The notes under the pieces: generated by a model | What the model was told of the DNA's origin: nothing | Database searches by the model: none | The model's input: the letters and a program-made list of their open reading frames with translations, nothing else | Shown: positions 53,422 to 63,726 of the stretch, in pieces | How the letters are laid out: each line of letters opens with the position of its first letter | Numbering within the stretch: position 1 is the stretch's first letter | Assembly: GCA_944393215.1 (NCBI GenBank) | Contig: CALXZL010000003.1 | Location: 87,238 to 151,237, forward strand | Reading direction: 5' to 3' | DNA from: an uncultured Alphaproteobacteria bacterium | GTDB taxonomy: Bacteria; Pseudomonadota; Alphaproteobacteria; RF32; CAG-239 | DNA length: 64,000 nucleotides | Program-made: the position numbers and the translations under genes

Positions 53422-53688
53422 TCAAGATAACCAATTTTTTATCAGCTTTTCTTTTATGTTTTGACTGCCTACTGCATTAATAGAGCTGTATAACACATCT
53501 TTTTCAAACAAAAAACCGATAAACTCATCACTTAAATGTAACTTAGCTCTGACTTCTTTATGCTCTGCTTCTTCCGCATTCCAAGCATAAAGTGTCTTAC
53601 CATCAGTTAAAATACGAACCAGTCTATGATGTTCACATAGCCTCTTAAATTGTTCCTTGTTAAGTATTGGTAGAATATTATTATTCAT
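53422..53688 (-). CDS. Small hypothetical protein downstream of the WYL regulator
   Basis: 88 aa. It overlaps the WYL gene end by 8 nt, so it is likely co-transcribed. Confidence 0.45.
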   Translation of the reverse strand: MNNNILPILNKEQFKRLCEHHRLVRILTDGKTLYAWNAEEAEHKEVRAKLHLSDEFIGFLFEKDVLYSSINAVGSQNIKEKLIKNWLS

Positions 53689-54631
53689 ACCAATTCTCCG
53701 GTTTAATTACTTTTACATGACTTCCCCATGTGTAGAGATGCCAATCCATTTCTAATCTGCCACCGGCTCTGAATTTAACGGTTAATGTTCCGTCCGGATT
53801 TTTTATCATGGCTTGTGTGGGATGAAAAATATAGTGAGAGGCTTCTTCTGATACTTCTTTATCAAACAACCATTCAACTTCGAAAGGCTCTTCGTGATAA
53901 GCACCAAATGATTCTTCAGCGTATTTCTGCAAGTTAAAATCAGGCGAGTTTTCAATTACACTGTTTAATATTTCTACTTCTCGAATATTGCTCAAAATAA
54001 AGTTATGAACTTCATTTCCAAAATATCCATCAGCATGATGGGCAACCAAGTAGTGATTGCGCTCACCATAAAGAAAGCCATAAGGGTTAAGGGTATTGGT
54101 ACTAATTTTTACGCTATTCTTATTATAATATTTAATTTTAATCTGCCGATATTCCAAAATGGCTTGGCGAACCGTAGCGATAATCTTTTCATCTATCACA
54201 AGTCTTGGTCCGGGGCGACAAATAAAGCCTTCTGCTTCAAGCAAGGCTTCGGTATCGGGTTCAATTTTGCGGATTATATCTGGTTTAATGGAGGCTTTTA
54301 TTTTTGCTATAACTTTATCAAGAACAAGGCTCCTTTCAACCATTTGCTTATTTCCAAACAACTCTTTAGCTGTTTCTAGAATCGATAATTCTTCGGCAGA
54401 AAAGTTTATTAAATCCTTTAATGTTCCTTGCGGAATATACCAGCGTTTTTGATTGTTTTCGCAAATAATTTCTTCGGCTTGCGGAAATCGAGTGATAATC
54501 ATGTCTCGCATACGTTCCGCCGTGCGGCGCGAAACTTGATATTTTTCAGCAATATCATTTAAGCTGACACCTTCACGGGTGGATTGCATCCAGACGGCTA
54601 AATCAAGCAAATCATATGTCTTTTCGTATGC
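53681..54631 (-). CDS. HTH plus WYL-domain transcriptional regulator (BrxR/CapW-like architecture)
   Basis: The N-terminal HTH is LNDIAEKYQVSRRTAERMRDMI. The central and C-terminal region (..YGFLYGERNHYLVAHHADGYFGNEVHNFILSNIREVEIL..) has a WYL-like pattern. The start is set at MAYEKTYDLL. Confidence 0.6.
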   Translation of the reverse strand, partial: AYEKTYDLLDLAVWMQSTREGVSLNDIAEKYQVSRRTAERMRDMIITRFPQAEEIICENNQKRWYIPQGTLKDLINFSAEELSILETAKELFGNKQMVERSLVLDKVIAKIKASIKPDIIRKIEPDTEALLEAEGFICRPGPRLVIDEKIIATVRQAILEYRQIKIKYYNKNSVKISTNTLNPYGFLYGERNHYLVAHHADGYFGNEVHNFILSNIREVEILNSVIENSPDFNLQKYAEESFGAYHEEPFEVEWLFDKEVSEEASHYIFHPTQAMIKNPDGTLTVKFRAGGRLEMDWHLYTWGSHVKVIKPENWYE

Positions 54632-54742
54632 CATGATTACTTCTCCTACTATTAAGGTAAAGTAATTGTATGACAATTTCTGACATATGAAAATTATTTC
54701 TTTTTCAAATCAAATGAATCTAAAGTTTGGAAGATAACAATA

Positions 54743-56951: not shown

Positions 56952-57474
56952 ATCATAGAGAGTTGTATAGAGGTTTAAATTAAGACACTCTATATAAAAC
57001 CCTAATATTTCCAATGCTTTTAGAGGGATAGAGGTTTAATAAAGGATTATATATACCGAGGTATCAATGACAAATATTATTAATTCTAAATAAAAAAAAT
57101 ATATTAAGATTATAGATAGAATATTAAAATATATATTATATATACTTTGGGTTGTTTTTTATTTAGACATTTTATTTGTTATATTATATATTGTAACCAG
57201 TTTTAACTCTCTATCTTTCTAAAACATACAGTTTTCTTGATTTTTTTATAGAGAGACTGAAATTTTAACTCTCTAACCCTGTTAAAAACACTCTATATTA
57301 GAATATCCTTTGTTTTCTATGCATATAAAAGAACTTTGCTTATTCCTACATCATTTATCAAAAACATTCAAAATCTCGTTATATGCAAAGAAAATGCAAG
57401 CTATTTTAGACTATTAATAAAATATTTTATTTTTAATGGTATTGTTTTAGCATAAAGGGGCAAAGGAGCATCCT

Positions 57475-58389
57475 ATGGAAAAGCAAATAATTGAAATTTC
57501 GAATGATGGATTTTCTTTATTTTTACATAGAGGTTTTATAAGTATTGAAAATAAAGATATTTCATTAAAAACAGAAATTCCATTGGATAATATTTTATCA
57601 TTAGTGATTAGTGCTAATGATTTGATGCTTTCTAAAAATGTAATAAATGCCATAACAGAACAGGGTGCAAATATTATTTGTTGTGGTAAAAATTATGTTC
57701 CTTCTTCAATTATAATTCCTTGCGAGGGGCATTGGCTAGTCGCATCAAGAGTTCAAAATCAAATAGAATGCTCCAAACCTTTACAAAAAAATTTATGGAA
57801 GAGTATTATTCAAAATAAAATTTATAATCAATCCAAAATTTTAGAGCTCTTTTTTCCTAATCATAGTAATATTGCGCGACTGAAACAATTAGCTAAGGAT
57901 ACACTTAGCAATGATGCGCGAAATAATGAAGGGGTGGCGGCTTCAATTTATTTCAAATCATTATTTGGTAAGAACTTTGTGCGAGATAGATTGAGCGGCG
58001 ACGTTAATATTTTATTGAATTATGCTTACATAGTTCTTAGAGCTATGGTTATAAGAGCAATTTATGGTAATGGATTGTTGCCTTTTTTAGGATTAAAGCA
58101 TTGTGCTAAAACAAATACTTTTCCCCTAGCAGATGATTTGATGGAGCCTTTTAGACCGTGGGCTGACAAATTGGTATTCGAGGAAATAAATAGGCTAGTT
58201 AATATTCAAGATATTGAATTGACGCCGGAAATAAAACGAAGATTAACAGGACTGATTTCTATTCCTGTCAAGACAGGTAAAGGTTGTGTTTCGTTAAATG
58301 ATGCCGTGTTTGATTTTGTGGGAAGTTTGGTCGTCAGTTTTGAAGATAAAAAAGTTAAATTAAAATATCCAGAGTTTGAAGATAGTTGA
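57475..58389 (+). CDS. cas1: CRISPR-associated endonuclease Cas1 (type II)
   Basis: 304 aa, alignable along its length with type II-C Cas1 (..NYAYIVLRAMVIRAIYGNGLLPFLGLKHCAKTNTFPLADDLMEPFRP..). The stop codon lies inside the degenerate terminal CRISPR repeat. Confidence 0.9.
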   Translation: MEKQIIEISNDGFSLFLHRGFISIENKDISLKTEIPLDNILSLVISANDLMLSKNVINAITEQGANIICCGKNYVPSSIIIPCEGHWLVASRVQNQIECSKPLQKNLWKSIIQNKIYNQSKILELFFPNHSNIARLKQLAKDTLSNDARNNEGVAASIYFKSLFGKNFVRDRLSGDVNILLNYAYIVLRAMVIRAIYGNGLLPFLGLKHCAKTNTFPLADDLMEPFRPWADKLVFEEINRLVNIQDIELTPEIKRRLTGLISIPVKTGKGCVSLNDAVFDFVGSLVVSFEDKKVKLKYPEFEDS

Positions 58390-59601
58390 CTGTCTAATTA
58401 ATCTCTGATACGTTTGAAGCTAATTCTATTAAACTTTCTTTAGGTTATAGTTGACCGTCTAATTAATCTCTGATATGCTCTTTCCAGCGCGGCACGCTTT
58501 TCATCCGGTGGTTATAGTTGACCGTCTAATTAATCTCTGATATGCTTAAGTATTCCGGTAAGTTTCTTCTTTGAGGGTTATAGTTGACCGTCTAATTAAT
58601 CTCTGATATGCTGAAAAACCGAGATAATCACCTAGACTCCCGGTTATAGTTGACCGTCTAATTAATCTCTGATATGCTGTAATTGAACATGAAACGTTAT
58701 CGTCGTTAGTTATAGTTGACCGTCTAATTAATCTCTGATATGCTATGAAATTATTTTTTCGCCTATTTGAATTTGTTATAGTTGACCGTCTAATTAATCT
58801 CTGATATGCTCTATTTCAACACATTGATAGCTCGTTTCAGTTATAGTTGACCGTCTAATTAATCTCTGATATGCTCTATTTCAACACATTGATAGCTCGT
58901 TTCATGTTATAGTTGACCGTCTAATTAATCTCTGATATGCTTATGTTATAAATATATCATAAACAAACAAGGTTATAGTTGACCGTCTAATTAATCTCTG
59001 ATATGCTTGCTTTTCTCATCAATTTGACTTTGTAACTGTTATAGTTGACCGTCTAATTAATCTCTGATATGCTAACACCCACGGCCTGCCAGACGATGAC
59101 CACGTTATAGTTGACCGTCTAATTAATCTCTGATATGCTAAAAACCGAAAAAATAGGTTAAATTGGTTAGTTATAGTTGACCGTCTAATTAATCTCTGAT
59201 ATGCTGGCGTTCCGTGGCATCAATATCAATTAAAAGTTATAGTTGACCGTCTAATTAATCTCTGATATGCTATAACAGTATTCGGGCCAGTGCGCAATTT
59301 TGTTATAGTTGACCGTCTAATTAATCTCTGATATGCTCTCGGAGATGATGGGGCTTACAGCACCTGAGTTATAGTTGACCGTCTAATTAATCTCTGATAT
59401 GCTACCGGAACTCGATGTATAAACGTTTTCTTGGTTATAGTTGACCGTCTAATTAATCTCTGATATGCTCACGCAGACCTGGTTTAGCGATTTTAATCTG
59501 TTATAGTTGACCGTCTAATTAATCTCTGATATGCTCAATTATATCCTGAAACGGTTAATAAAGCTGTTATAGTTGACCGTCTAATTAATCTCTGATATGC
59601 T
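58379..59601 (+). CRISPR. CRISPR array: 18 identical 36-bp repeats (GTTATAGTTGACCGTCTAATTAATCTCTGATATGCT) plus one degenerate terminal repeat at 58379-58414; 18 spacers of 29-31 bp
   Basis: Repeat starts are at 58444, 58511, 58577, 58643, 58709, 58775, 58840, 58906, 58972, 59038, 59104, 59170, 59236, 59302, 59368, 59434, 59500 and 59566. The degenerate copy gaagatagttgactgtctaattaatctctgatacgtt has 6 mismatches. Spacers 6 and 7 (58811-58839 and 58876-58905) are identical except for 1 nt. Confidence 0.95.
58471..59601 (+). promoter_or_regulatory. Repeat-embedded extended -10-like promoter elements (TGATATGCT at repeat positions 28-36), predicted to drive plus-strand crRNA transcription
   Basis: TGnTATgcT resembles an extended -10 (TGnTATAAT). 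This parallels the repeat-internal promoters of Neisseria/Campylobacter type II-C arrays. The orientation agrees with tracrRNA anti-repeat complementarity. Confidence 0.5.
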
Positions 59602-59611
59602 ATCTGATAGC

Positions 59612-59655
59612 ACAAGGCCTTGAAATAACTAGATTTCAAGGTCTTGTTTTAATAA
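59612..59655 (+). terminator. Intrinsic terminator downstream of the array (plus strand)
   Basis: A 13-bp stem (aaggccttgaaat / atttcaaggtctt, one G-U) with loop aactag, followed by gttttaataaaaaaa. Confidence 0.5.
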
Positions 59656-59676: not shown

Positions 59677-60039
59677 CTAAAAGAGCAATAACTGTCCATT
59701 TTTTTCGCGAATCTCTTCTTCATTATCTTCAAAATTCTTGCCTAAATAGTTCTCGGTCATTAGATATTGTTTATCCGTGATATAAATAAATGATACCGAA
59801 GAATTATCCGGTATGAATTTGGATAACTTTTTAGTTAAGGTTTGTCCTACCGACAAACTCTTAACCGGTTTGATGTAAACGGAAAACTGCTTCATCATAA
59901 AACCTTCATCAAGTAGGAGATTGCGAAAGCGGGTGGCTTTGCGCATCTCGGTTCGAGTTCTGACCGGTATGTCAAACATACAGATTATCCACATCATTGA
60001 CCAGCCGGTTAAGGTTTCACGCCGCTTTTGTCGAGCCAT
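59677..60039 (-). CDS. cas2: CRISPR-associated endoribonuclease Cas2 (II-A-like MFDMP-type)
   Basis: MMWIICMFDIPVRTRTEMRKATRFRNLLLDEGFMMKQFSVYIKPV resembles Streptococcus-type Cas2 ([42 protein letters not shown]). The likely true start is the MM at 59997. The longer ORF overlaps the cas9 end. Confidence 0.85.
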   Translation of the reverse strand: MARQKRRETLTGWSMMWIICMFDIPVRTRTEMRKATRFRNLLLDEGFMMKQFSVYIKPVKSLSVGQTLTKKLSKFIPDNSSVSFIYITDKQYLMTENYLGKNFEDNEEEIREKNGQLLLF

Positions 60040-63000
60040 TGCTCAATACCTTGTGTTTCTTTTTTATTTTCCCAAATGGGGTTAATTCTATTTTTCTTAC
60101 TCTATATTTGCATAACCATTGTAAGCTCTTATCTTCTAATAAAACTGGTAGCATATACTTTGGTTTGCTATTAGCATTTTCTCCATTTCTTGCATCATTT
60201 GATAGTTTTATTCCTAATTGGTTTCTTCCAAATCTAAACTTAACAATTTCAGCAATGCAACGTTGTTTATCTGTATATTCTTTCCATTCTTCTGGGGTAT
60301 TCAATTCAAGCAAATCACCTTGCTGCACAGACCATATGATTTTTCCTCCATCTTGTTGCCATTGTGGAACAAAATCTTTTTGGTTTATGTCAAAAAGCCT
60401 AATTACTTCGCCATTGATTTTTTCATTTTGCTCATAAACTTCTAAACAATAATTATTCCGCCCTTCATACGCAACGCCATGCTTGGGGATATAAACCAAT
60501 GAAGAATTGTTTTCATAACTCCTAAATTTATCGCCTTTCCATAACTTTTTCTCTTGAATGAGATAAAAAGCCCTAGTTAAAATACGACTTTCGGTGATGG
60601 AAATTTCTTTTTTGCCTTCAGATGCAGCTTTTTCGTTTTCAGCAATCAGAATTTGCTCGGCTGTATTTGCATAAAGTTCAAAGGCTTTGACTAATTGAGC
60701 TTGCTTTGCTTTGTCTTCGGCAATGTGCTTATTCCACTCATCTTTAATGGAATCGGGAATGAGTAATTTGTTTAAGTCTTTCATTGATTTAACAACTTGT
60801 AATATCTTGCGTGAATAAACCGTGATTAAGGATTTGCTGTCATCCGGGTTTATGCATAAAACCGTTCTACCGGTTTCTTTATGGAGTTTTCCTGCTTTGC
60901 TGTGTTCGGGCTTGTGCGAAACATTAACCTTTTTTAAAACATCAATAACTTGACGGCGAAACTCTCCGACTGACTCAATACTTGTTAACGGAAGAGGTAC
61001 ATGCTGATGCGGTAAATCGATTTCATTAGCCATATGCTGGATCAGAGAACGATTCATACAAGCAACAGTTATGGCGTCCATGGCGTGATGACGATGGTCA
61101 ATTCTGGGCTTTGATACCCATTCTTTGTTCTTAGTTTTATCAAAAAATCTCCATTTGCCATCAATATTAGGTTGTTTTACTCCTTCAATAACTTCTCCAG
61201 TATCTTGCTCAACCCAATAAGGAGAACAATTTATATATCTTGGAATATCCAATCCCATGAGATCATATTCCAAACCTTGTAAGTTCCAACAGCGGCGCAT
61301 TTGAGCAGTTTGAGCTCCTTTAACAGGAAGAATCCGATTATGAATCACTTCTTCACTATCTGGGCTATCAACAATTGCTCTTAAATATCTTGCTGCCATT
61401 TTGGAGACATAACGCGTATCTGTTAAATAGCGTGTAGTTTCATCTGCATCCCCTTCTTCTTCGAATTTTTCACGAGCGTCGGCCTCAAAACGCCATGCTT
61501 TGGCAGGTGTTCTCTCTCGGGCATTTTGTAATATGGTCCTTATCATTTCGGGAGATTTTGCTTTTAGAAAATACTCATAAGCAAAGTCATTCCCTTTGGC
61601 TAAATTGTCCGGACGATTGACCAAACAGAGATTGTAATAAGTATCGGTTCCGCCTTTGGCTTGCGGAATGATATGTTCTATTTCAAAACCGACAAAATTT
61701 CTTGTGATATCATCCGTCGGATTATAAGCGTCTTTCCAACCTTGTTCTTTGGCTAGTTTATATTTCAAAATGTTCTTGCCGTTAATAAACAGCTTGTGGT
61801 CTTTTAAGTATTGTTTGGCCTCTTCATTAAGTTTTTCATTATTTTTTTGCTTTTGCTCTTCTTGCTTTTTCTTTTTGGTTGACATGCCAACATCTCGACC
61901 AAGCTCAATATTGATGTCATAAGGTTTGCCGTAAATGCGGATTATATCATTAATCACCAAGCGGAGTTGATTTAAAATCATATGAACTGCCGGATTGGCT
62001 ATTTTGCCCCATTTGATTTCATCAGGATTAAGATTTTTGTTGTTTTTGACCATTAATGGTGGAAGCGGTTGTGTATCAGCCTGCAAAATCTCGCCATAAT
62101 AAGGAAGTTCATGACATTTGCCTTGGTTTTGGCGGGCGACTTCTTCCGATGCCATAAATCTGTTATCATTTTTAGCTAAATCATCGGTTATTTCACGGTG
62201 GGTTATTACTTGTTCTTTTAATTTTTCCAAAATAATTTTTGAGGCACTTTCACCTAACATTCCGCGACCTTTGGGAAGTTTGGTAAGTAGCTTGCCAATT
62301 TCTTTGTCATCATCAATTTTTAGAATCGGTTTTAAGTGCGTTATTAGCTCATCCTCACTATATAAGCGACCATTTTTATCATTGGGGTTGACCGGATTAG
62401 CTAAAAAGTCAACAAATTTTGCCAATTCTTCATCTGAGAGCTTTTGTATATATTCTATCTCTGAGAATTCGGGACGTGAGTATAAATAAGCCTTGATGTT
62501 TTTATCATCAAGTAAAGAAATTTTTTGTTGAGCTGAAAGACCTAATAATTTTTTGATAGCTGATTTTCCGGCATTTTTGCCTTGCAATAAAAGCTCATTG
62601 ATAATTTTATCTCTTTCTTCTAAAGTTAGCTTGCGTTTATTGGTGTCGCTTAATACACGGATATTATTTACTTCTTCATAAATACGTCTTAATTCTGATA
62701 ATGGATGTGCTTTCAGCAGTCTGTCTTCATCTTTGAAATAAATACATTTTCCAGTAGCATAAGGAGCTGGTGGATGCTCATAAAACAAAATATCATAAAT
62801 TTCTTTTTTCAGACCTTCCTTTTGCATTTGCGTAAAGTATTGAGCCTGTGTATCCCAAATTCGGTTAAACTCATCTTTTACCAGATAGCGGGGAATTGCA
62901 TAATCTACAATGTGTTGTTTTAAGGCGTGTTCTTTTTGGCGGATAATTCTTTTTTCAGGATTTATTTTTTCGCCTTTTTCATCCTTTGCATATCCTTCAC

Positions 63001-63529
63001 AAATTCTTTTATAAAAAAACTCACCGATCGTTTTAGAATTTGTTTGCTTTAAATGCTCTGCCATCATGTCATAGGCTGATTTTTTTGCCTTTGATTTTTC
63101 TCCTTCTTCCAAAATTTCTTCTTGTAACTCTTCAGAGGCAGATACAAATCCAGCTCCGCGATGTTTAGCCATATGCAGAATAGCTCGTCCGATATAATTG
63201 GGATTGGCAAGCGTTCCGTTTACGGCATCAAAGCGAATTTTATAAGGAGATTTTGCTCTTAATTTATCCGTTCCTTCCGGCGTATTGTTTACCCATAGCT
63301 GGTTTTCAAAAAGTTTTTGGGCTAACAATTCCAGCCTTTGGCGGGTGCGAATCTGATTTTTTCGCATTGTTCGTTTGGTTCGTCTGTCTTCGGCTCCTTC
63401 CGATACATTAAAGATACGAACTCCGGCATCAATAATCTTTTGAGGATTGTTACACTCATCTAACTCAATAATTGCGCTACCAATGGAGCCAACTCCTAAA
63501 TCCAAACCCAAACGATACTTCATAAACAT
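60017..63529 (-). CDS. cas9: CRISPR-associated endonuclease Cas9 (1170 aa)
   Basis: RuvC-I is YRLGLDLGVGSIGSA. The Arg-rich bridge helix follows. HNH is FEIEHIIPQAKGGTDTYYNLCLVNRPDNLAKGN. RuvC-III is HHAMDAITVAC. cas2 is adjacent. Confidence 0.95.
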   Translation of the reverse strand: MFMKYRLGLDLGVGSIGSAIIELDECNNPQKIIDAGVRIFNVSEGAEDRRTKRTMRKNQIRTRQRLELLAQKLFENQLWVNNTPEGTDKLRAKSPYKIRFDAVNGTLANPNYIGRAILHMAKHRGAGFVSASEELQEEILEEGEKSKAKKSAYDMMAEHLKQTNSKTIGEFFYKRICEGYAKDEKGEKINPEKRIIRQKEHALKQHIVDYAIPRYLVKDEFNRIWDTQAQYFTQMQKEGLKKEIYDILFYEHPPAPYATGKCIYFKDEDRLLKAHPLSELRRIYEEVNNIRVLSDTNKRKLTLEERDKIINELLLQGKNAGKSAIKKLLGLSAQQKISLLDDKNIKAYLYSRPEFSEIEYIQKLSDEELAKFVDFLANPVNPNDKNGRLYSEDELITHLKPILKIDDDKEIGKLLTKLPKGRGMLGESASKIILEKLKEQVITHREITDDLAKNDNRFMASEEVARQNQGKCHELPYYGEILQADTQPLPPLMVKNNKNLNPDEIKWGKIANPAVHMILNQLRLVINDIIRIYGKPYDINIELGRDVGMSTKKKKQEEQKQKNNEKLNEEAKQYLKDHKLFINGKNILKYKLAKEQGWKDAYNPTDDITRNFVGFEIEHIIPQAKGGTDTYYNLCLVNRPDNLAKGNDFAYEYFLKAKSPEMIRTILQNARERTPAKAWRFEADAREKFEEEGDADETTRYLTDTRYVSKMAARYLRAIVDSPDSEEVIHNRILPVKGAQTAQMRRCWNLQGLEYDLMGLDIPRYINCSPYWVEQDTGEVIEGVKQPNIDGKWRFFDKTKNKEWVSKPRIDHRHHAMDAITVACMNRSLIQHMANEIDLPHQHVPLPLTSIESVGEFRRQVIDVLKKVNVSHKPEHSKAGKLHKETGRTVLCINPDDSKSLITVYSRKILQVVKSMKDLNKLLIPDSIKDEWNKHIAEDKAKQAQLVKAFELYANTAEQILIAENEKAASEGKKEISITESRILTRAFYLIQEKKLWKGDKFRSYENNSSLVYIPKHGVAYEGRNNYCLEVYEQNEKINGEVIRLFDINQKDFVPQWQQDGGKIIWSVQQGDLLELNTPEEWKEYTDKQRCIAEIVKFRFGRNQLGIKLSNDARNGENANSKPKYMLPVLLEDKSLQWLCKYRVRKIELTPFGKIKKKHKVLSNGSTKAA

Positions 63530-63617
63530 CTCCTTGTCTTATTGTTGTGCAACTCTGCATAAAACAACTTATAATATTATCCTTGACTTTTCAATCAAAA
63601 TATTCTTATATTACAAG

Positions 63618-63726
63618 TGATATATGTTTTGATTTTTTCAGAGATTAATTAGACGGTCAATACATATATAATAAGGTTATATACCGTAAGATGAGGGGGT
63701 GAGTAATTGCCCCCATTATTTTTCAG
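63618..63726 (+). ncRNA. tracrRNA candidate, divergent from cas9
   Basis: The anti-repeat cagagattaattagacggtcaa (63639-63660) is a perfect complement of repeat positions 8-29. An AAGG-containing nexus-like segment follows. A terminator hairpin GGGGGTGAGTAATTGCCCCC plus TTATTTTT lies at 63695-63724. Candidate promoter elements are TTGACT (63583-63588) and TTATAT (63606-63611). Confidence 0.65.

What the first reader, a model, noticed from the sequence alone, without database searches (positions are those of the whole stretch)
58444..59601. Each CRISPR repeat ends in an extended -10-like element (TGATATGCT): predicted repeat-internal promoters and RNase III-independent crRNA 5' ends
The last 9 nt of every repeat read TGATATGCT, which fits TGnTATAAT at 6 of 8 defined positions. 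This sits exactly where Neisseria meningitidis and C. jejuni II-C repeats carry their embedded promoters. The orientation is plus-strand, toward cas2 and cas9. The same orientation is required by the tracrRNA anti-repeat, which pairs with repeat positions 8-29. The same terminal is also the degenerate end. The degenerate terminal repeat has TGATACGTT instead.
Basis: partly seen in the sequence, partly recalled or inferred. Interest (0 to 1): 0.6.

Follow-up and report, generated by a model that had tools for sequence, protein, structure and literature searches.

The report
Promoter inside every CRISPR repeat

Summary
All 18 perfect 36-nt repeats (58444-59601) end in TGATATGCT, and the degenerate repeat (58379-58414) ends in TGATACGTT. 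Together these give a full promoter, TTGACC-N17(TG)-TATGCT. Its chance frequency is about 2e-5 per position, against about 1.3e-3 for the extended -10 alone.

Plus-strand transcription is firmly supported. A conserved plus-strand tracrRNA (~63619-63724) has covarying hairpins. A conserved plus-strand hairpin followed by a T run lies directly after the last repeat.

In 27 related loci from uncultured gut Alphaproteobacteria, repeat positions 33-35 are hypervariable (5, 4 and 7 changes). T31/A32 never change, and T36 changes twice. This is the TAnnnT pattern of a -10 element.

The array's polarity matches type II-C: the oldest, degenerate repeat comes first and new spacers are added at the cas2 end.

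There is one caveat. cas1 lies upstream on the same strand, and its stop codon falls inside the first repeat. A read-through precursor RNA is therefore also likely. Promoter activity was not tested.

Verdict: a new member of a known kind. Interest is low to moderate.

The parts
58379..58414 (+). First repeat in the crRNA direction. It is the oldest, 'extra' and degenerate copy: AAGATAGTTGACTGTCTAATTAATCTCTGATACGTT. It differs from the consensus at positions 1-3, 13, 33 and 35. The cas1 stop codon TGA (58387-58389) lies inside its TTGACT hexamer.
58444..59601 (+). 18 identical 36-nt repeats separated by 17 spacers of 29-31 nt. Each repeat holds -35-like TTGACC (repeat nt 8-13), a 17-nt spacer ending in TG (nt 28-29), and -10-like TATGCT (nt 31-36). 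The predicted TSS is about 7 nt into the following spacer, leaving a guide of about 24 nt.
58451..58479 (+). Example of one repeat-internal promoter: TTGACC at 58451-58456, TG at 58471-58472, TATGCT at 58474-58479. The same element recurs in each of the 18 repeats.
   Evidence: one search lists all 18 sites with 17-nt spacing and TG
59602..59613 (+). Conserved sequence directly after the last (newest) repeat (ATCTGATAGCAC; family consensus ATCTAATAGCAY). This is the leader-side junction where new spacers are presumably inserted.
   Evidence: inference
59614..59650 (+). 12-bp hairpin (59614-59625 pairs with 59634-59645) followed by GTTTT. It looks like a terminator for plus-strand transcripts leaving the array, before they run antisense into cas2 and cas9.
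   Evidence: covariation; G:U pairs valid only on the plus strand; -20.4 kcal/mol, z -5.8 on plus; -15.7 on minus
57475..58389 (+). cas1 (304 aa). It lies on the same strand as the crRNAs, directly upstream of the array, and ends inside the first repeat.
59677..60039 (-). cas2 (120 aa). It overlaps the 3' end of cas9.
60017..63529 (-). cas9 (1170 aa).
63583..63724 (+). tracrRNA gene. Its parts are: promoter TTGACT-N18-TATATT (63583-63612); TSS about 63619; anti-repeat 63639-63660; bulge TACATA; TATAAT 63667-63672, which pairs with repeat nt 1-6; nexus hairpin about 63675-63685; terminator 63695-63714 followed by a T run.

Best explanation
This is a type II-C CRISPR-Cas9 locus in which each repeat contains a sigma-70-type promoter, TTGACC-N17-TGaTATGCT, whose -10 hexamer is the last six bases of the repeat.

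Inferred mechanism. RNA polymerase starts about 5-9 nt into the downstream spacer. The primary 5' end then already defines a guide of about 22-25 nt. The transcript runs into the next repeat, which pairs with the plus-strand tracrRNA over repeat nt 1-6 and 8-30. RNase III and Cas9 set the 3' end. Transcripts that pass the last repeat stop at a conserved hairpin and T run before they reach cas2.

New spacers enter at the cas2-side (last) repeat. The oldest, first repeat is degenerate. Per-repeat promoters therefore keep the newest, transcription-distal spacers expressed.

Shown here: the sequence elements, the strand, the array polarity and the conservation profile. Inferred, not shown: promoter activity, TSS position and independence from RNase III.

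In this locus cas1 transcription very probably also reads into the array. That would give a second, processed precursor route.
For: - Every repeat carries -35, a 17-nt spacer, TG and -10 on the plus strand. The chance frequency is about 2e-5 per position.
- The organism's clade is uncultured gut Alphaproteobacteria. The tracrRNA promoter conserved in the same loci is a canonical TTGACw-N17/18-TATAnT, so the sigma-70 consensus applies.
- The strand is fixed by the tracrRNA. Its nexus and terminator hairpins carry compensatory changes, and repeat-to-anti-repeat pairing was confirmed.
- A plus-strand-specific conserved hairpin lies right after the array.
- On a Cas9 tree of 27 loci, repeat positions 33, 34 and 35 changed 5, 4 and 7 times. 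Position 36 changed 2 times. Positions 28-32 changed 0 times. T31 and A32 are not explained by tracrRNA pairing, so the pattern is TAnnnT. Five species have a perfect TATAAT.
- Mutated first repeats keep the TG..TA...T part while their 5' part decays.
- Older repeat variants and shared spacers lie at the cas1 end. This is the type II-C polarity described in PMC12080349.
- The same position and geometry were validated by dRNA-seq in C. jejuni and reported for N. meningitidis.
Against: - No transcript data exist for this organism.
- The -35 hexamer lies within the tracrRNA-pairing segment, and TG pairs with the tracrRNA too. Their invariance therefore has another sufficient explanation.
- TATGCT matches the consensus at only 4 of 6 positions.
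- The commonest variant in metagenomes is TACTTT (3 of 6). Four of 21 repeat types lack T at -7.
- cas1, or another gene in L010, L017 and L031, always reads toward the array. An external source of pre-crRNA can therefore never be excluded.
- The metagenome sample was selected with a pattern containing TGATA, so only the 27 loci found by Cas9 homology inform positions 28-32.
Confidence: 0.75

Rival explanations
1. The array is expressed only as the 3' extension of the cas1 mRNA, as one long precursor. It is then matured by tracrRNA, RNase III and 5' trimming, as in type II-A. On this view the promoter-like hexamers are inactive by-products of a repeat sequence shaped by tracrRNA and Cas9 binding.
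For: - cas1 is on the crRNA strand and its stop codon lies inside the first repeat, so no terminator can intervene.
- This cas1-to-array layout is conserved in most relatives.
- Where cas1 is elsewhere, another gene still reads toward the array.
- The scan found no plus-strand terminator between 57000 and 59600.
- Some relatives lack T at -7.
Against: - It does not explain why T31 and A32 never change while 33-35 are saturated with changes, since these positions lie outside the tracrRNA duplex.
- It does not explain the exact coincidence with the validated -10 position in C. jejuni and N. meningitidis.
- Arrays reach 36 repeats with the newest spacers at the far end. A single upstream promoter would express these least.
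Confidence: 0.15
2. The conserved TA at positions 31-32 and T at 36 serve spacer integration, not transcription. They would be recognised by Cas1-Cas2 at the leader-proximal end of the last repeat.
For: The 3' end of the repeat abuts the conserved leader-side sequence where new spacers enter. Integrases of other type II systems read sequence near the leader-repeat junction (general knowledge, not tested here).
Against: The three bases nearest but one to the junction (33-35) are the most variable in the whole repeat. That is unexpected for a junction-recognition motif. This reading also does not account for the -35 hexamer at optimal spacing or for the TG.
Confidence: 0.07
3. The match is a chance resemblance in an AT-rich repeat, or the array is transcribed from the minus strand.
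For: The window is 35.5% G+C, and sigma-70-like matches are common there: 28.7 expected per 7 kb at the lax threshold.
Against: The full element has a frequency of about 2e-5 per position. Minus-strand crRNA is incompatible with the plus-strand tracrRNA and its terminator, and with the plus-strand hairpin after the array. No recurring minus-strand promoter-like site occurs in the repeats.
Confidence: 0.03

Closest known systems
Neisseria meningitidis type II-C CRISPR-Cas9 (repeat-embedded crRNA promoters; Zhang et al. 2013, as summarised in PMC5965381 and PMC12477760)
   Same: - 36-nt repeat and 30-nt spacers.
- A promoter element occupies the last bases of each repeat.
- crRNAs are transcribed opposite to cas9 and toward the cas genes.
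- The TSS is a few nt into the spacer (6th nt in Nme).
- tracrRNA is on the crRNA strand.
- The only cas genes are cas9, cas1 and cas2.
- The best Cas1 model is cas1_NMENI.
   Different: - Here a -35 hexamer (TTGACC, 17-nt spacing) accompanies the extended -10.
- The -10 core is weaker (TATGCT) and varies between species.
- cas1 is not between cas9 and cas2. It lies beyond the array, convergent with cas9, and reads into the array.
- tracrRNA lies upstream of cas9.
- Cas9 shares only distant similarity with solved ~1082-aa Cas9s (that these are Nme- or Geo-type is from memory).
Campylobacter jejuni type II-C CRISPR (Dugar et al. 2013, PMC3656092)
   Same: Each repeat ends in an extended -10-like box (GGTAAAAT). 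Primary transcripts start at spacer nt 5. RNase III and tracrRNA make the 3' end. An upstream terminator or a mutated extra repeat limits the extraneous crRNA (PMC12080349).
   Different: No -35 is described in C. jejuni. C. jejuni has a terminator upstream of its array, whereas here cas1 abuts the first repeat and leaves no room for one.
Type II-A arrays (S. pyogenes type) with a leader promoter
   Same: A tracrRNA:repeat duplex is used. If cas1 read-through occurs, a long precursor would need RNase III processing.
   Different: The polarity is opposite. Here new spacers enter at the transcription-distal repeat and the degenerate repeat is first. There is no csn2.

Membership tests
Type II-C CRISPR-Cas | Effector Cas9 with RuvC and HNH domains | tested here: met
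   TIGR01865 at 458.9 bits; Pfam RuvC_III and HNH.
Type II-C CRISPR-Cas | Only cas9, cas1 and cas2; no csn2 (II-A) or cas4 (II-B) | tested here: met
   The neighbouring ORFs are an AAA_18 kinase-like protein, an unassigned 158-aa ORF found only in close relatives, a TrpRS/TyrRS-class synthetase and a WG-repeat protein.
Type II-C CRISPR-Cas | tracrRNA with an anti-repeat, nexus and terminator | tested here: met
   Anti-repeat at 63639-63660; hairpins with compensatory changes in 18 sequences. No Rfam family matched it.
Type II-C CRISPR-Cas | Array transcribed opposite to cas9; new spacers at the last repeat; first repeat is the oldest and is often mutated | tested here: met
   The strand follows from the tracrRNA. 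The degenerate repeat is first in about 15 loci. Shared spacers and older repeat variants lie at the first-repeat end. This matches PMC12080349.
Repeat-embedded crRNA promoters (Nme/Cje kind) | [quoted passage not shown] | tested here: met
   TGATATGCT in 18 of 18 repeats, plus TTGACC at 17 nt. Conservation follows TAnnnT.
Repeat-embedded crRNA promoters (Nme/Cje kind) | Primary 5'-triphosphate crRNA ends inside each spacer | not testable with these tools
   No transcriptome is available. This needs dRNA-seq or 5' RACE.
Repeat-embedded crRNA promoters (Nme/Cje kind) | crRNA production and interference persist without RNase III | not testable with these tools
   This needs genetics in the host or a heterologous rnc mutant.
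Repeat-embedded crRNA promoters (Nme/Cje kind) | No external promoter or transcription feeding the array | tested here: not met
   cas1 is co-oriented with the array and ends inside the first repeat, so external read-through is likely. This lowers 'sole route', not 'works like Nme'.

The most novel reading that the evidence does not exclude
In this clade the CRISPR array is effectively the 3' untranslated region of cas1, because the cas1 stop codon lies inside the first repeat's TTGAC hexamer. tracrRNA/RNase III cleavage at the first repeats would then define the 3' end of the cas1 mRNA. That would couple expression of the adaptation gene to tracrRNA-Cas9 availability. Meanwhile complete, species-tunable promoters in every repeat (from TATAAT down to TACGTA) would supply the guides independently.
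Probability: 0.15. Interest if true: 0.55.

Novelty: new member of a known kind. Interest (0 to 1): 0.3.

Why it matters
It extends the repeat-embedded promoter design of type II-C systems to an uncultured, low-G+C clade of gut Alphaproteobacteria. It also provides comparative evidence for that design: a TAnnnT conservation profile against a hypervariable -10 core.

For anyone wishing to use this Cas9, the analysis fixes the crRNA strand, the tracrRNA boundaries and the expected guide length (about 24 nt).

The unusual cas9-cas2-array-cas1 layout leaves no insulator between cas1 and the array. That makes it a natural test case for recent ideas about extraneous crRNAs and about how type II-C arrays handle upstream transcription.

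None of this changes the current understanding of CRISPR biology.

Tried and rejected
- Protospacer and PAM search, intended as an independent check of crRNA orientation. The whole array against GenBank phages (blastn, E up to 1) gave no match. Three spacer 3' segments against IMG/VR gave no match. All 929 family spacers against every fetched locus and the window gave only self-hits inside arrays.
- Spacer sharing among the 27 species-level genome loci found none. Shared spacers appeared only after metagenome arrays were added.
- Rfam gave no tracrRNA or CRISPR family hit, only two tRNAs.
- The key primary paper (Zhang et al. 2013) and the Mir et al. 2018 review are not held. Their content is cited only through PMC5965381, PMC12477760 and PMC12080349, or is marked as memory.
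- A literature search for the repeat sequence found nothing.
- The 158-aa ORF upstream of cas1 was considered as a possible accessory gene. It was rejected because it is conserved only in the closest relatives and has no family match.
- Loci with cas1 upstream of cas9 (L010, L017, L031) were examined as a natural test for arrays without upstream transcription. The test failed because another gene reads toward the array in each.
- The minus-strand promoter-like site inside the anti-repeat (63660-63632, TTGACC-17-AAAAAT, pointing at cas9) is not conserved as a -10 in relatives. It is treated as a relic.

Full report
**What is there**

The region holds a CRISPR array of 19 repeats. Eighteen are identical 36-nt copies of GTTATAGTTGACCGTCTAATTAATCTCTGATATGCT. 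The first starts at 58444 and the last ends at 59601. Their spacers are 29-31 nt long. One further, degenerate copy lies at 58379-58414.

The flanking genes are:
- cas1, 57475-58389, plus strand.
- cas2, 59677-60039, minus strand.
- cas9, 60017-63529, minus strand, 1170 aa.

No csn2 or cas4 is present, so by gene content this is a type II-C locus. Cas1 best matches the type II model cas1_NMENI. The closest solved Cas9 structures are ~1082-1095-aa proteins. That these are Neisseria- or Geobacillus-type II-C enzymes is from my memory of the entry codes.

The consensus scan found more than an extended -10. In each of the 18 repeats it reports TTGACC (5 of 6 to TTGACA), then a 17-nt spacer ending in TG, then TATGCT. 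This is a complete sigma-70-type promoter whose -10 hexamer is the last six bases of the repeat.

The repeats are copies of one sequence, so this is a single observation. In this window and in composition-matched random sequence, an extended -10 of this quality occurs at 1.2-1.4e-3 per position. The full -35/17/TG/-10 combination occurs at about 2e-5 per position. Only three other sites in 64 kb reach that level.

**Strand**

The anti-repeat at 63639-63660 is the perfect complement of repeat nt 8-29. Read on the plus strand, it is preceded by TTGACT-N18-TATATT (63583-63612). It is followed by a 6-nt bulge (TACATA) and then TATAAT, which pairs with repeat nt 1-6 (G:U at nt 1). After that come an AAGG-type nexus hairpin and a GGGGG...CCCCC hairpin with a T run at 63695-63724.

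In an alignment of 18 relatives, both hairpins keep pairing through compensatory changes: GC to AU and CG to UA in the nexus, and GC to AU in four sequences in the terminator. tracrRNA is therefore a plus-strand gene, and crRNAs must be plus-strand too. They run toward cas2 and cas9.

A 12-bp hairpin (59614-59645) followed by GTTTT lies 12 nt after the last repeat.
- It is conserved in relatives and covaries. One stem position shows five pair types (AU, CG, GC, UA and GU).
- In six sequences one pair is G:U, which is valid only in plus-strand RNA.
- It folds at -20.4 kcal/mol (z -5.8) on the plus strand, against -15.7 on the minus strand.

So plus-strand transcripts do arrive at the end of the array and are stopped before they become antisense to cas2 and cas9.

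**Who owns it**

Cas9 relatives with 53-94% identity come from 31 species-level genomes labelled uncultured gut Alphaproteobacteria. The labels include 'Azospirillum sp.' MAGs, Candidatus Scatocola and one Micavibrio. Three further labels (two Bacteroidaceae, one Gastranaerophilales) are probably binning errors.

These organisms are Proteobacteria, and the tracrRNA promoter conserved across the loci is canonical. A sigma-70 reading is therefore appropriate. It would not have been for Bacteroidota.

**Comparative test**

Twenty-seven loci found through Cas9 homology, independently of repeat sequence, carry arrays with nearly the same repeat. I counted changes by parsimony on a Cas9 neighbour-joining tree:

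| Repeat position | Changes |
|---|---|
| 33 | 5 |
| 34 | 4 |
| 35 | 7 |
| 36 | 2 |
| 7 (the unpaired bulge base) | 4 |
| 28-32 | 0 each |
| every other position | 0-1 |

T28/G29, and probably A30, pair with tracrRNA. T31 and A32 do not. If they evolved like positions 33-35, about five changes each would be expected.

The profile is constrained TA, free NNN, and a mostly kept T. That is the information profile of a -10 hexamer (established knowledge of sigma-70 promoters). Five species have reached a perfect TATAAT and one has TAAAAT.

Adding 54 metagenome arrays gives 74 arrays and 21 repeat types. Entropy is 1.55-1.72 bits at positions 33-35 and 0.86 bits at position 36. That sample was selected with a pattern containing TGATA, so it informs only positions 33-36.

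Against strict conservation, TACGTA, TATACC and TAAAAC lack the T at -7. The commonest metagenome variant, TACTTT, is a weak hexamer.

**Polarity**

In about 15 loci the mutated repeat is the first one in the crRNA direction. Its changes concentrate in nt 1-7 and 13, while TG..TA...T is retained.

Older repeat variants sit at that same end in L009 and L012. Spacers shared between same-species arrays are spacers 1, 2, 3 and so on. L038 and L085 share spacers 1-9.

New spacers therefore enter at the cas2-side, transcription-distal repeat. This is the type II-C configuration described by Feussner et al. 2025, who also note that the extra repeat must keep its promoter to express the first spacer (PMC12080349).

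**Comparison with known systems**

[quoted passage not shown] In N. meningitidis, repeat-embedded promoters start crRNAs at the 6th spacer nt, and RNase III is dispensable (PMC5965381; PMC12477760).

The field now treats this as a general type II-C trait and routinely invokes it for new loci (PMC10281378). Some type II-C arrays lack it (PMC5006608).

The present case is thus a new member of a known kind. It has three local peculiarities:
- A full -35/-10 promoter rather than an extended -10 alone.
- A hypervariable -10 core.
- An unusual gene order.

**The gene order and the main caveat**

In the window and most relatives the order is cas9, cas2, array, then cas1 convergent on the far side. 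Three loci have cas1 upstream of cas9 instead.

cas1 is on the crRNA strand, and its stop codon lies inside the first repeat. In the window it is the TGA of T-TGA-CT. In at least six relatives the stop also falls within the first repeat. No terminator can intervene there, and none was found.

cas1 transcription therefore almost certainly continues into the array. A long precursor processed by tracrRNA and RNase III probably coexists with repeat-initiated transcripts.

Even where cas1 is elsewhere, another gene reads toward the array. Genomic context therefore cannot separate the two routes. Only transcript mapping can.

**Verdict**

Interest is 0.3.

Noticed in passing
window 57475-58414; L002-L004, L007, L008, L013, L022, L026, L027, L029, L030: cas1 is separated from cas2. 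It sits on the far side of the array, convergent with cas9-cas2. Its stop codon lies inside the first (degenerate) repeat, so the last cas1 codons are repeat-derived and no leader or terminator separates gene and array. The order cas9-cas2-array-cas1 is conserved in most of the 27 relatives. Three loci (L010, L017, L031) have cas1-cas9-cas2-array.
   Followed up: partly
window 58811-58839 and 58876-58905: Spacers 6 and 7 are the same sequence (CTATTTCAACACATTGATAGCTCGTTTCA, with one extra T in the second copy). This is a duplicated repeat-spacer unit.
   Followed up: no
window 58366-58396: The cas1 3' end and the extra repeat can fold together. The local hairpin is AGAUAG-UUGA-CUGUCU, and the C13T change adds a pair (MFE -15.5 kcal/mol, z -2.2). 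C13T recurs in the first repeat of L003, L006, L020 and L024. This might hinder formation of an extraneous crRNA from cas1 read-through. The stem is not conserved in L004 or L026.
   Followed up: partly
window 59602-59613 and relatives: The 12 nt after the newest repeat are conserved across the family (ATCTAATAGCAY). This is a candidate leader-anchoring sequence for spacer integration at the transcription-distal end.
   Followed up: no
window 63571-63612: The tracrRNA and cas9 promoters appear to be divergent and interleaved. TTGACT (plus strand, 63583-63588) and TTGATT (minus strand, 63598-63593) are involved. A conserved block CTTATAATATTAT probably supplies the cas9 -10.
   Followed up: no
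window 63660-63632 (minus strand): The anti-repeat retains the repeat's TTGACC-N17-TG followed by AAAAAT, pointing toward cas9. It looks like a relic of a repeat promoter. The -10-like part is not conserved in relatives.
   Followed up: partly
L016 array and its tracrRNA (L016:9782-9902): The current L016 repeats (…CTAATCAAT…) mismatch the anti-repeat at two positions. The oldest repeat (…CTGATTAAT…) matches it. The repeat therefore seems to have drifted away from its tracrRNA.
   Followed up: no
window 56952-57474: This is a 524-nt AT-rich non-coding stretch upstream of cas1. It has nested imperfect inverted repeats (57018-57055 with 57187-57224; 56966-56999 with 57242-57275) built on TAGAGAG/CTCTCTA motifs. 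It could be a MITE-like insertion or a set of regulator sites.
   Followed up: no
window 53681-54676 (minus strand): A WYL/WCX-domain protein lies about 3 kb from cas1. It is also present near the CRISPR locus in L001, L003 and L004. WYL proteins are known regulators of some CRISPR and defence loci. No link was tested here.
   Followed up: no
L019, L028, L005 record titles: Contigs carrying this alphaproteobacterial CRISPR locus are labelled Bacteroidaceae or Gastranaerophilales in three MAGs. This is probably a binning or labelling error.
   Followed up: no
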